From positions 42,842,001 through 42,906,000 of the forward strand of contig OX597837.1 of NCBI GenBank assembly GCA_951406725.2: a DNA stretch of 64,000 bases, written 5' to 3'. Below the pieces are notes generated by a model. It had not been told where the DNA came from and made no database searches. It saw only the letters and a list, made by a program, of their open reading frames with translations. The stretch's first letter is position 1. Each line of letters opens with the position of its first letter. Shown here piece after piece: positions 41,086 to 61,952 of this stretch. Source of the stretch: Octopus vulgaris. Taxonomy: Eukaryota. The position numbers and the translations under genes were made by a program.

Positions 41086-41853
41086 TAAGTGCTGTACAGT
41101 GGGACTGAACACGAAATCTCGTGGTTGCAAAGTGGAATTCTTAATCACGCAGTCATGCCTAAGTCTGGAAATTATGGAAAACAAAATCTAAACGTTTCGC
41201 GTAGAGTTTGTAGTAGTCTATGTAGCTAAATAGTTGAATGAAGTAATCTATGCAAGCTAAGTGGTGGCTTTCATTCATGTGGCGTAGAGAAAAATAGACG
41301 GACATAGCAATGATGGGAATGGCTCTAAGCCTAAGAAGACTAACAAGCGAAGAACAGGGTTAGCAAGCTGTTTTAATTAATGGAACGCTTGACATTCTAG
41401 AAACTTCTAAGAGAAACGCTAAGCTTCTTGAATAATTAAGAATCTCGTTTCATGGCATATGCTTCGAGAAGCTTAGTAAAGGAAGTTTACCCTTTAATCT
41501 TTCTTGCAAGGAAGGTCATTCAACTATTTAGCTACCGCTACACACCCCTCAGGCAAAAGTTGAGCCGGTGTGAAGATGACCATGAGAAGCTGGACTTGCG
41601 GTGGCCAAAACGGTGTAAGCCAGTCACTGAACAAAGCAGGATGTCGAAATGAGCTGGTTACAGTACTTGCGACGAAAAAGGATGTTGAAATATAAGCAAA
41701 TCTGGGATTTGAAGCTTCCATATGTAAATACAGTTCTATATGCCCACGGGCATGTGGCGTAGTGGTTAAGAGCGCGGGCTACTAACCCCAAGATTCCGAG
41801 TTCGATTCCAGGCAGTGACCTGGATAGTAATAATAATAATAATAATAGTAATG

Positions 41854-41885
<32 letters not shown>

Positions 41886-41890
<5 letters not shown>

Positions 41891-42010
41891 GAACACTTTC
41901 AATATAGTAACCATCCGAGCATCACAACAAATCACAGCACATACCCAAGGCACACAGAGCTGCGCTCGGTAGTGAAGTGAAAGCACGCTATAAAAATAAA
42001 ACTACTGAAT
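41886..42010 (+). mobile_element. R4/Dong-like non-LTR 3' end inserted in (AAT)n
   Basis: Begins with an ILRTLSI* ORF end followed by a short UTR, and is bounded by AAT repeats; clade is inference. Confidence 0.5.
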
Positions 42011-42029
42011 AATAATATTATTAATAATG

Positions 42030-42095
<66 letters not shown>

Positions 42096-42096
<1 letters not shown>

Positions 42097-42237
42097 GAGA
42101 TCACCATGTCGCGCACATATGGTTGTGATGCATGTGCCTGGTGTACCCTTATCAGACGGGTAGTCATGATGGGTATATTGGGCTTCGTATATTTTACCCC
42201 AGTGTCACTTTGATGGCATGAACTGCTCTCTCACTCA
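42096..42237 (+). mobile_element. Non-LTR 3' end fragment inserted in (AAT)n
   Basis: Homologous to 45421-45560; both copies end CTCTCTCACTC-(AAT)n. Confidence 0.65.
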
Positions 42238-42299
42238 ATAATAATAATAACATCGAAAAATACCTTAGGAATGAGAACCCACGTTCGAAATTTCCCCGA

Positions 42300-42345
42300 G
42301 ACACCTGATGAAGGCTGGAAAGTATATCAGCCGAAACGTTGTGTT
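42300..42345 (+). ncRNA. Minimal type I hammerhead ribozyme motif
   Basis: Stem I GACAC/GTGTT; core CTGATGA plus an extra A; stem II GGCTG-10 nt-CAGCC; GAAAC-GTT (palindromic ACGT stem III, GUU cleavage triplet, predicted cut after 42340). Confidence 0.8.
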
Positions 42346-42759
42346 AACAACAAACAAGATGAGGACAAATATCCGTCAAATGTAAATAATGTAAATAATG
42401 TAAATAATGTTCCATATGTAAACTTGTTGAAATGTTTCAGGTTGAAAAAATGTTAGTGGTGTTGTTGACGGAGAGAAACAGACGGACATAGGCAATGACG
42501 TGAATGGCTCTAAGTCTAAGAAGACTAACAAGCGAAGAGCAGGGTTAGCAAGCTGTTTTTATTAATGGAACGCTAGACATTCTAGAAACTTCCAAGAGAA
42601 ACGTTAAGCTTACTGAATAATTAAGAATCCCGTCTCATGACACAGGGGCTTCGAGAAACTTAGTAAAGGGAGGTTACTCTATATGCTTTCTTCCAAGGGA
42701 GATCATTCAACTACTTAGTTACATAGACTACTAGTTGTTAGGCACTCAACTGCCTTTGG

Positions 42760-45387: not shown

Positions 45388-45560
45388 ACCTGCAAGGTCA
45401 TGTGCTGTTTATCTGGATATGAGATCATTATGCCGCACACATATGGTTGTGATGCTTGTACCTGGTGTACCCTTATCAGACGGGTAGTCATGATGGGTAT
45501 ACTGAGCTTCACATATTATACCCCAGTGTCACTTTGATGGCATGCACTCTCTCTCACTCA
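45388..45560 (+). mobile_element. Non-LTR 3' end with (AAT)n tail
   Basis: Homologous to 42096-42237. Confidence 0.65.
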
Positions 45561-45581
45561 ATAATAATAATAATGATAATA

Positions 45582-61270: not shown

Positions 61271-61466
61271 TATACGAAACGTCGTAACTTTCAGTGCAGG
61301 CTCTAATTTCTATAGAAAAATCAGTGAAGATAATTAAAAACTGACTCAGCACATATGCTAGGACACAGCAACCTCCTAAGCAGATATGAGTAGCATATAG
61401 GAACCGGTATTAAGGAAGGCTAGGGAAATATTAGATTTATAAGCCCTAAAATTCACTTCATAATTG

Positions 61467-61952
61467 TCCACGGGCATATGGTATAGTGGTTAAGAGCGCG
61501 GGCTGCTAGCCCCAAGATTCCGAGTTTGATTCCAGGCAGCGACCTACATAATAATAATAATCATATCCTACATAAAATACTTTCAATGTAATCTCAACTT
61601 TTAAAACAAACGTAATTTTCGTATGTTTTTTTTTTTAGACATTCACTAGTACAACACTAAATACAAAACTAAATATATGGCACACTAGGCATAACAACAA
61701 CATGAACTTCCAACCTGTTGTCTCTTGTGGTCTCTGGGTGAGACTTGGAGCCAACTTGTACAAATATAAAGCAAAAGTCAAACATTGAATAACAACAACA
61801 ACAACAACAACATCGAAAAATACCTTAGGAATGAGAACCCAGATTTGAAATTTCCCCAAGACACCTGATGAAGGCTGGAGAGTACATCAGTAGAAACGTT
61901 GTGTTAACAGCAAACAGATATCCGTCAAATATAATAATGTAAATAATGTAAA
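61467..61952 (+). mobile_element. SINE family H, second copy (decayed hammerhead) with an R4/Dong-like insert at 61561-61788
   Basis: Same tRNA head and tail as 41743-42410; CTGATGA and GAAACGTT kept, but stem II is broken (CAGTA); insert begins HILHKILSM*. Confidence 0.85.

What the first reader, a model, noticed from the sequence alone, without database searches (positions are those of the whole stretch)
41743..42410. Pol III SINE with a hammerhead ribozyme in its tail: a candidate self-cleaving retroelement family
Seen: a tRNA-like head with A and B boxes, an (AAT)n linker, then a tail with an intact minimal type I hammerhead (GACAC-CTGATGA-A-GGCTG..CAGCC-GAAACGTT-GTGTT). The same head and tail recur at 61467-61952, so this is a family and not a chance juxtaposition. 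A 13-bp direct repeat flanks copy 1. Known: minimal hammerheads with a palindromic stem III mark Penelope-like pLTRs and cleave as dimers, and tRNA-promoter plus hammerhead elements are known from schistosome Sm-alpha. Inference: a cephalopod SINE that acquired a Penelope pLTR and ribozyme, makes self-processed Pol III RNA, and may be mobilised by Penelope RT rather than a LINE. I do not know whether this family has been described.
Basis: partly seen in the sequence, partly recalled or inferred. Interest (0 to 1): 0.8.

Follow-up and report, generated by a model that had tools for sequence, protein, structure and literature searches.

The report
Penelope retrotransposon with tRNA-derived promoter
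This repeat, in a genome that is likely an octopus, is the end-repeat of a Penelope-type retrotransposon and carries a tRNA-like promoter and a hammerhead ribozyme motif; its thousands of short mirror-image copies were likely made by the element's own enzyme from RNA that likely starts at that promoter, which would be an unusual case of a protein-coding transposon using RNA polymerase III.

Summary
Head + (AAT)n + hammerhead tail is the terminal repeat (pLTR) of an autonomous Penelope/Poseidon-type element: 23 of 30 loci picked by its RT motif carry head and/or tail just after the ORF, and the tail encodes the ORF's first 55 codons. Short copies are abundant (8,169 exact 19-mer hits). They show the Penelope signature: 44 of 65 insertions have an inverted arm, 40 of 43 pair one long with one short 3' end, and target duplications flank the pair. 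Of 34 insertions reaching the head's start, 26 stop there, and the 2.5-kb ORF has no TTTT (P=0.028). So RNA likely starts at the tRNA-Arg-like A/B-box promoter, perhaps as full-length Pol III RNA. Most copies span the ribozyme cut site, so cleavage is not how they are made; 5' ends piling up just after the site hint at minor cleavage. Pol III use and cleavage are untested. Nine literature searches found no description; Repbase and the octopus genome paper could not be checked. New variant of a known kind.

The parts
41716..41728 (+). Left target-site duplication TTCCATATGTAAA
   Evidence: family-wide TSDs >=10 bp in 15 of 43 twins vs 0.2 shuffled
41729..41741 (-). 13-nt inverted stub of the tail's long end (second arm of a twin insertion)
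   Evidence: reverse complement equals tail positions 174-186
41742..41826 (+). tRNA-Arg-like head with A box (41755-41765) and B box (41800-41808); likely Pol III start at about 41742
   Evidence: 5'-end pile-up
41827..42249 (+). (AAT)n linker, here expanded and holding two nested fragments of other repeats
41887..42000 (+). Nested 3' fragment of an unrelated AAT-tailed repeat (not part of the family)
   Evidence: longer copies with a different upstream part in L008, L143, L293, L333
42097..42238 (+). Nested 3' fragment of a second unrelated AAT-tailed repeat (also at 45421-45561)
42250..42409 (+). Tail = pLTR part that encodes the start of the Penelope ORF (ATG at 42271, frame open through the ribozyme); ends at the short end
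42300..42345 (+). Minimal type I hammerhead motif; predicted cut after 42340
   Evidence: sequence, fold, features as in PMC4209133
42410..42422 (+). Right target-site duplication
61347..61466 (+). Copy 2: decayed 3' end of the Penelope ORF (end of the GIY-YIG domain) and the short spacer before the head
   Evidence: 84% over 210 nt to a natural element copy; translation WEPVLRK-like
61467..61950 (+). Copy 2: head, interrupted linker, tail with broken hammerhead stem II

Best explanation
The element is the terminal repeat of a Penelope/Poseidon-type retrotransposon, a repeat that contains a tRNA-derived promoter; RNA likely starts at this promoter by Pol III, and the element's own RT-endonuclease likely copies it into short inverted twins. 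Shown: the full element reads [head-(AAT)n-tail]-2.28 kb body-[head-(AAT)n-tail], with one ORF of about 835 aa that starts in the tail, runs through the hammerhead and stops 24 nt before the head. Inferred from the Anolis Poseidon mechanism (PMC11167929): the protein cuts both strands of AT-rich DNA and starts reverse transcription inside its RNA at two sites, here about ORF +120-130 and +165, one per strand, giving head-to-head arms with one long and one short end inside a 10-13 bp TSD. Inferred: starting in the first repeat of the RNA copies only back to the RNA 5' end and gives a 300-bp SINE-like copy; starting in a second, downstream repeat gives ORF-bearing copies. Inferred: the ribozyme is not needed for copying, and cuts at most a minority of RNAs.
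For: Partner: RT-motif pattern 119 hits, control 0; 23 of 30 such loci have head and/or tail 0.4-1.4 kb downstream, 13 of 30 an inverted arm upstream; RVT_1 E 4e-9; 9 of 12 long loci end in the head (8 also the tail), 6 of 12 have the tail in front of the body, 3 of these with the head. Majority-rule ORF 835 aa with RT and C-terminal GIY-YIG-type motifs. Twins: 44 of 65 position-ordered insertions; ends long+short 40, short+short 3, long+long 0 of 43; TSD >=10 bp 15 of 43 vs shuffled mean 0.2, max 2; 3' ends bimodal, 74 short / 61 long / 3 between of 138 arms; neighbouring hits 11 head-to-head, 1 tandem, 0 tail-to-tail among the first 100. 5' ends: of 47 insertions with a head, 26 start at -13..+10 of the head start, 13 inside it, 8 run 23-753 nt upstream; stop rate 0.060/nt at the head start vs 0.007 inside the head and 0.002 upstream. 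Five of 30 junction loci (4 independent junctions) join ORF sequence directly to head position 0 or 1. No TTTT in the 2,505-nt majority-rule CDS vs 2.9 in synonymous-codon shuffles (P=0.028); three control ORFs have 8 each vs 6.0-8.4 expected; Phe TTT:TTC 6:15 vs about 1:1. Natural copies have 0.45 runs/kb vs 0.65-4.65 in six controls. Same variant alleles in ORF-linked and short copies.
Against: No direct evidence of Pol III transcription. RNA-seq reads lie equally on both strands, 85% run on into unlike flanks, and no ends pile up, so visible RNA is passenger in other transcripts. TTTT depletion is modest (P=0.028), compares a majority-rule sequence with natural control copies, and one LINE control is nearly as low (0.65/kb). 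The head's first 20 nt form a small hairpin that could itself stop RT (copy 1). How uncapped Pol III RNA would be translated is unexplained. All ORF copies seen are broken, so the family may be extinct. The 65-insertion sample was chosen by an exact 19-mer on one chromosome arm, which favours young copies and twins. No tree was built.
Confidence: 0.65

Rival explanations
1. The short copies are ordinary 5'-truncated Penelope insertions from Pol II read-through RNA. The tRNA-like piece is a passenger in the 3' UTR, and RT stalls and folds back at its 5' hairpin.
For: Penelope insertions are usually 5'-truncated (PMC8557442). Short and long copies share alleles. Many short copies begin with a fold-back palindrome at the head start (6 of 26 head starts scored in the unbiased set). 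RNA-seq shows only passenger RNA.
Against: The stop rate jumps about 9-fold at the head start and falls about 25-fold beyond it; the native hairpin is only 4-5 bp by inspection; the stop lies about 13 nt before an intact A box; ORF-to-head junctions land at position 0 or 1; the body lacks Pol III terminators.
Confidence: 0.2
2. One reading: an independent SINE lineage with its own source copies, whose Pol III RNA is processed by the hammerhead and mobilised in trans by Penelope RT.
For: Short copies far outnumber ORF-bearing ones (8 of 47 run upstream). Ribozyme position U7, the tolerant core site, carries a subfamily variant in 22 of 110 arms while other core sites do not. 16 arms start at tail 92-99, just after the cut site, against 1 at 84-91. 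Some short copies with the long end may have served as templates.
Against: The head is in the autonomous element too, with no diagnostic allele separating short from ORF-linked copies. Copies span the cut site. In the Anolis element RT needs RNA to ORF +172, beyond the copied part, and ribozyme mutants insert normally (PMC11167929). U7 is also a third codon position of the ORF.
Confidence: 0.12
3. A LINE-dependent SINE with a chance or inert hammerhead-like sequence.
For: An (AAT)n run like LINE-type tails is present; Rfam hammerhead models do not match.
Against: The AAT run is internal; 3' ends are two fixed internal sites, with inverted twins; the tail is 85-96% identical to the repeat of a Penelope element and encodes its N-terminus.
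Confidence: 0.02

Closest known systems
Penelope/Poseidon-clade PLEs, e.g. Poseidon of Anolis (PAc; PMC11167929) and Adineta Pen2a (PMC3846280)
   Same: One ORF with RT and C-terminal GIY-YIG-type domain; pLTR holds the ORF start and a minimal hammerhead; inverted 5'-truncated arm; optional 30-40 bp tail on one end; 8-13 bp TSDs.
   Different: The pLTR starts with a tRNA-derived A/B-box head and an (AAT)n run; most copies stop at that head; the body has no TTTT. Promoters described for Penelope and Chlamys pLTRs are TATA/Inr-like or intron-linked.
TRIMp3: Cassandra, Helenus, Ajax (PMC10886601)
   Same: Small-RNA-derived Pol III promoter inside a terminal repeat of a retrotransposon.
   Different: Those are non-autonomous LTR elements; the paper states their autonomous partners must use Pol II and are unlikely to share the repeat. 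Here the protein-coding element itself carries the head, and it is a PLE.
Schistosome Sm-alpha / Sj-alpha (as summarised in PMC2770079)
   Same: tRNA-related, SINE-like, high-copy repeat with a hammerhead.
   Different: No autonomous partner is named in the passages read; canonical rather than minimal hammerhead (PMC4209133). Tandem arrangement and Pol III promoter of Sm-alpha are recalled, not from a call. Here copies are head-to-head twins and the partner is identified.
Animal non-LTR retrozymes (bioRxiv 10.64898/2026.07.22.740005) and non-autonomous Chlamys such as MRC1 (PMC8557442)
   Same: Non-coding derivatives of PLE terminal repeats.
   Different: Retrozymes are tandem arrays with a hammerhead in each unit; this family is dispersed, inverted, and has a tRNA head.
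Octopus SINEs 'Twin' (Albertin 2015) and OR1/OR2 (tRNA-Arg-derived); both recalled, papers not held
   Same: Abundant octopus SINE-like repeats; the name Twin and a tRNA-Arg origin would fit.
   Different: Could not be compared. The short form may already be catalogued under such a name; I found no account of its Penelope link.

Membership tests
Penelope/Poseidon PLE | Single ORF with RT and C-terminal GIY-YIG endonuclease | tested here: met
   RVT_1 E 4e-9; motifs at aa 367, 502, 535 (RT) and 728, 799 (EN-type) in an 835-aa majority-rule ORF. The EN was recognised by recalled motifs, not by a profile hit.
Penelope/Poseidon PLE | No CX2-5CxxC linker before the EN (present in Neptune, Nematis, Naiad) | tested here: met
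   By inspection of translations (L234, L242, L235); the Neptune-like L211 has it; definition
Penelope/Poseidon PLE | pLTRs formed by partial tandems and holding the ORF start | tested here: met
   (L278, L279, L286, L287)
Penelope/Poseidon PLE | Inverted 5'-truncated arm and 30-40 bp tail on one end only | tested here: met
   44 of 65; long+short 40 of 43
Penelope/Poseidon PLE | RT phylogeny within the clade | not tested
   no reference Poseidon proteins were in hand; no tree built
minimal PLE-type hammerhead (PMC4209133) | Core CUGANGA / GAAA / UH, bulge between 9 and 10.1, G10.1-C11.1, palindromic 15.2-16.2, 4-5 bp helix I | tested here: met
   copy 1 sequence and fold; 22 of 111 unselected arms structurally intact
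minimal PLE-type hammerhead (PMC4209133) | Core more conserved than flanks, covariation | tested here: inconclusive
   4.2% vs 5.3%, P=0.14; only U7 carries a common variant; no covariation analysis run
minimal PLE-type hammerhead (PMC4209133) | Self-cleavage as dimer or with protein | not testable with these tools
   hint only: 16 arms start at 92-99 vs 1 at 84-91; no read-end pile-up
Rfam hammerhead families | Match to a covariance model | tested here: not met
   none at E<=10 in 41700-42450
tRNA-derived SINE | tRNA-derived head with A and B boxes | tested here: met
   best match among 35 distinct genomic tRNA-like sequences of 7 isotypes is tRNA-Arg, 49-50 of 74 nt
tRNA-derived SINE | Transcribed by Pol III from the head | not testable with these tools
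   indirect: 5'-end pile-up
tRNA-derived SINE | Separate non-autonomous lineage; head absent from the autonomous partner | tested here: not met
   head is in the partner; shared alleles
tRNA-derived SINE | 3' end from a LINE, ending in a simple-repeat or A tail | tested here: not met
   3' part is a PLE ORF start ending at two fixed sites
non-LTR retrozyme | Head-to-tail tandem units each with a hammerhead | tested here: not met
   1 tandem vs 11 head-to-head pairs among the first 100 hits
TRIMp3 (Cassandra/Helenus/Ajax) | Non-autonomous, two LTRs with PBS and PPT | tested here: not met
   repeats flank an RT-EN ORF and integrate as PLE twins; PBS/PPT were not searched for

The most novel reading that the evidence does not exclude
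An autonomous, protein-coding retrotransposon that switched to RNA polymerase III: a captured tRNA-Arg promoter in its terminal repeat drives a 2.6-2.9 kb RNA through an ORF purged of TTTT terminators, and the same promoter makes the element spawn its own SINE-like family of tens of thousands of inverted twins, which are ready-made double-stranded RNA substrates for A-to-I editing in octopus.
Probability: 0.35. Interest if true: 0.88.

Novelty: new variant of a known kind. Interest (0 to 1): 0.74.

Why it matters
It shows a route by which a Penelope-like element, not a LINE, yields a high-copy SINE-like family, and it catches the parent with the tRNA promoter still in its own repeat. A published expectation is that autonomous partners must use Pol II (PMC10886601); a terminator-free 2.5-kb ORF behind an A/B-box head makes the opposite testable. 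The twins also give a large in vivo record of Penelope integration: 40 of 43 pair one long with one short end, which fits two RT start sites used on opposite strands of one cut, and extends the in vitro result for Anolis Poseidon. The pile-up of 5' ends after the cut site bears on the open question of whether minimal PLE hammerheads cut in vivo. As short perfect inverted repeats, the twins may be a notable source of edited dsRNA in octopus transcripts.

Tried and rejected
Whole-window Rfam scan: the 150 listed of 178 hits are microsatellite matches to miRNA/snoRNA models. Whole-window repeat search was swamped by microsatellites. Pfam PF26215 is not in the library. GIY-YIG search of G000 scored 150 of 6,136 candidates; 50 loci examined plus 6 extended regions were mostly Neptune-like and none matched the tail, so they were rejected as partner. 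A pattern for tails with non-AAT upstream (94 hits) showed no alternative upstream family, explained later because the partner also has head and AAT upstream. My early ideas that the ORF starts at the ATG inside CTGATGA, or that a mini-intron lies in the tail, were dropped: another frame is open from ATG 42271 into the body. The search with the 36-aa translation of that wrong frame gave 8 hits; three were looked at and seem spurious translations of this or related repeats, one from Octopus bimaculoides. One search covered the ORF end by a coordinate slip; one search is the intended search. No RNA holder is on record in the run index; this is no evidence on expression. Hydra-1_Obim (2,507 bp, Craig 2021 supplement) has a different hammerhead, and three short motifs of this family do not occur in that supplement's text. 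Four look-ups of earlier scan findings were empty. No covariance model, tree or structure prediction was made.

Full report
Observation. Copy 1 has the head, A and B boxes, hammerhead and 13-bp direct repeat as described. The linker also holds two nested fragments of other AAT-tailed repeats, and a 13-nt inverted stub of the tail sits just inside the left TSD. Copy 2 has a broken stem II and B box and extends upstream to 61347. Rfam gives only a weak tRNA match and no hammerhead; ARAGORN finds no tRNA. Below, T1 is 42250, the predicted cut is after T91 (42340), and H1 is 41743.

Family. G000 is 2.8 Gb in 227 contigs. An octopus host is inferred from this, and from an O. bimaculoides predicted protein that begins with a tail translation. 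A 19-mer of the ribozyme occurs 8,169 times, reversed control 0. It is intact in 25 of 111 arms not chosen on it, which gives roughly 36,000 arms (rough). 28 of 30 head-picked loci have the tail downstream. Arms are about 92% identical to the majority sequence, with CpG decay. Contigs of four runs from four coded organisms are full of the family. The head's best match among 35 distinct genomic tRNA-like sequences of 7 isotypes is tRNA-Arg.

Penelope-type integration. I took the first 70 pattern hits on C1, which merge to 65 insertions (L091-L120 minus 5 loci of the same twin, and L141-L180, five of which hold two or three hits). 44 of 65 have an inverted arm directly upstream, and 47 have a head. 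Of 43 twins with both 3' ends resolved, 40 pair a long end (T178-186) with a short one (T131-160), 3 are short-short, none long-long. Exact TSDs flank the whole twin: >=10 bp in 15 of 43 (shuffled mean 0.2, max 2) and >=8 bp in 23 of 43 (1.2, max 4). 3' ends of 138 arms are bimodal. Craig 2021 and Arkhipova 2013 describe exactly this: an adjacent inverted 5'-truncated copy, and a 30-40 bp tail on one end. Frangieh 2024 ties the tail to two internal RT start sites. The sample favours young copies and twins, so 44 of 65 overstates the genome-wide share.

The partner. Fifty GIY-YIG loci, mostly Neptune-like, did not match. A degenerate pattern for a recalled Poseidon RT motif gave 119 hits, control 0. 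23 of 30 loci carry head and/or tail 0.4-1.4 kb downstream on the same strand, and 13 of 30 an inverted arm upstream. Twelve long loci show the layout [head-AAT-tail]-2,276 nt-[head-AAT-tail]: 9 end in the head, 6 have the tail in front of the body, 3 of these with the head. A majority-rule version of 11 spans has one 835-aa ORF from the ATG at T22 (42271), read through the ribozyme, with RT and C-terminal GIY-YIG-type motifs (RVT_1 E 4e-9). The stop lies 24 nt before the head, and no CX2-5CxxC linker is seen. The short and long ends thus fall at about ORF +120-130 and +165; the Anolis element starts at +111-118 and needs RNA to +172. All copies seen have stops or frameshifts. ORF-linked and short copies share their common variants, for example H69 A in 8 of 24 and 13 of 47, so no separate SINE lineage is visible.

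Where copies begin. Of 47 insertions with a head, 26 begin at -13..+10 of H1, 13 inside the head, and 8 run 23-753 nt into element sequence. The stop rate is 0.060 per nt at the head start, 0.007 inside the head and 0.002 upstream. Five of 30 loci picked at the tail-ORF junction (4 independent junctions) join ORF sequence straight to H0 or H1. Two of the three long copies with a 5' head begin at H4 and H9. This is what a fixed RNA 5' end about 13 nt before the A box would give, and fits a Pol III start (established knowledge of type 2 promoters). RT arrest at a small hairpin is the rival; fold-back palindromes do occur there.

Terminators. The majority-rule CDS has 0 TTTT runs in 2,505 nt, against 2.9 in synonymous-codon shuffles (P=0.028), and Phe codons are 6 TTT to 15 TTC. 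Three control ORFs have 8 runs each, as expected, and about 1:1. Natural copies have 11 runs in 24.6 kb (0.45/kb; Markov expectation 33), at 10 sites shared by at most two copies, against 0.65-4.65/kb in six controls. This suggests selection for Pol III read-through of the whole element. It is modest evidence, and translation of such RNA is unexplained; protein might come from Pol II read-through.

The ribozyme. It has the features of minimal PLE hammerheads, which cleave poorly and need a dimer (PMC4209133) or the element's protein; ribozyme mutants of the Anolis element insert normally. Copies here span the cut site, so uncut RNA was the main template. The core decays like its flanks (45 of 1,082 vs 378 of 7,191 mismatches, P=0.14), and 22 of 111 arms are structurally intact. 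Two hints of function among source elements. First, U7, the free core position, is A in 22 of 110 arms and C in 23% and 42% of depth in two runs; it is also a third codon position. Second, among 137 arms that begin inside the tail, 16 begin at T92-99 against 1 at T84-91 and 10 at T100-107 (window 92-101 P=0.005, uncorrected; at least one, L240, is an alignment artefact). RT stalling at stem I could also give this.

RNA. Two raw RNA-seq runs of one study gave 8,187 and 6,724 reads from about 6% of each run, equal on both strands, 85% running into unlike flanks, with no pile-up of ends. This is passenger RNA and says little about Pol III RNA. A>G appears at 32-33 places and T>C at 25 (threshold 3%), several at 11-30%, while four contig sets show 2-3 and 1-2 places (threshold 5%, other organisms, kind not on record). 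A-to-I editing of the twins is likely but lacks matched DNA.

Literature. Read: PMC4209133 (parts 1-2 of 4), PMC11167929 (parts 1-2 of 4), bioRxiv 10.64898/2026.07.22.740005 (part 1 of 5), PMC10886601 (passages and section 4.2), passages of PMC8557442, PMC3846280, PMC13282606, PMC8967140 and PMC2770079, and term searches in the supplements of PMC8557442 and PMC13282606. Nine searches listed no paper on a PLE with a tRNA-derived repeat or a PLE-mobilised tRNA SINE; I judged most by title and abstract start. Albertin 2015 (a recalled 'Twin' SINE), the OR1/OR2 papers, Repbase and Dfam were not available, so the short form may already have a name.

Verdict. Real, high-copy, and clearly Penelope-made. 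Best read as a Poseidon-type element whose terminal repeat captured a tRNA-Arg-like promoter and so spawns SINE-like twins (0.65). Full-length Pol III transcription is the bold reading (0.35). New variant of a known kind; interest 0.74.

Noticed in passing
family-wide, L002:1405-1690 as reference: RNA reads show A>G and T>C changes at dozens of sites that are rare in genomic copies; the inverted twins are likely A-to-I edited.
   Followed up: partly
window 41887-42000 and 42097-42238; 45421-45561: Two other AAT-tailed repeats, 91-99% alike among most copies, insert into (AAT)n runs, often inside this family's linker.
   Followed up: partly
window 41287-41535 and 42471-42722: An 87% direct repeat of about 250 bp flanks copy 1; probably an older local duplication.
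   Followed up: no
window 58282 (+) and 39065 (-): Two related hammerhead-like motifs of another family (CTCTGATGAG...GAAA..GATT), probably ends of a different PLE.
   Followed up: no
L211, L067, L072 and others (G000): A young Neptune-like family with many intact 781-aa frames, preceded by a further open frame in L211, may be recently active.
   Followed up: partly
L213:1050-1150; L064, L128, L138 3' regions; L181:1410-1460: At least three more hammerhead-like pLTR families occur in this genome.
   Followed up: no
L297, L298: Two loci share the same internal deletion joining ORF start to head, a multiplied non-autonomous tandem derivative.
   Followed up: partly
P0001, P0002 (unnamed ENA records): Tandem-repeat translations resembling this tail's ribozyme region, perhaps retrozyme-like arrays of a related PLE in another organism.
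   Followed up: no
window 4562-9688 and 20864-23527: Decayed LINE ORFs (CR1/L2-like and RTE-like by recalled motifs), used only as controls.
   Followed up: no
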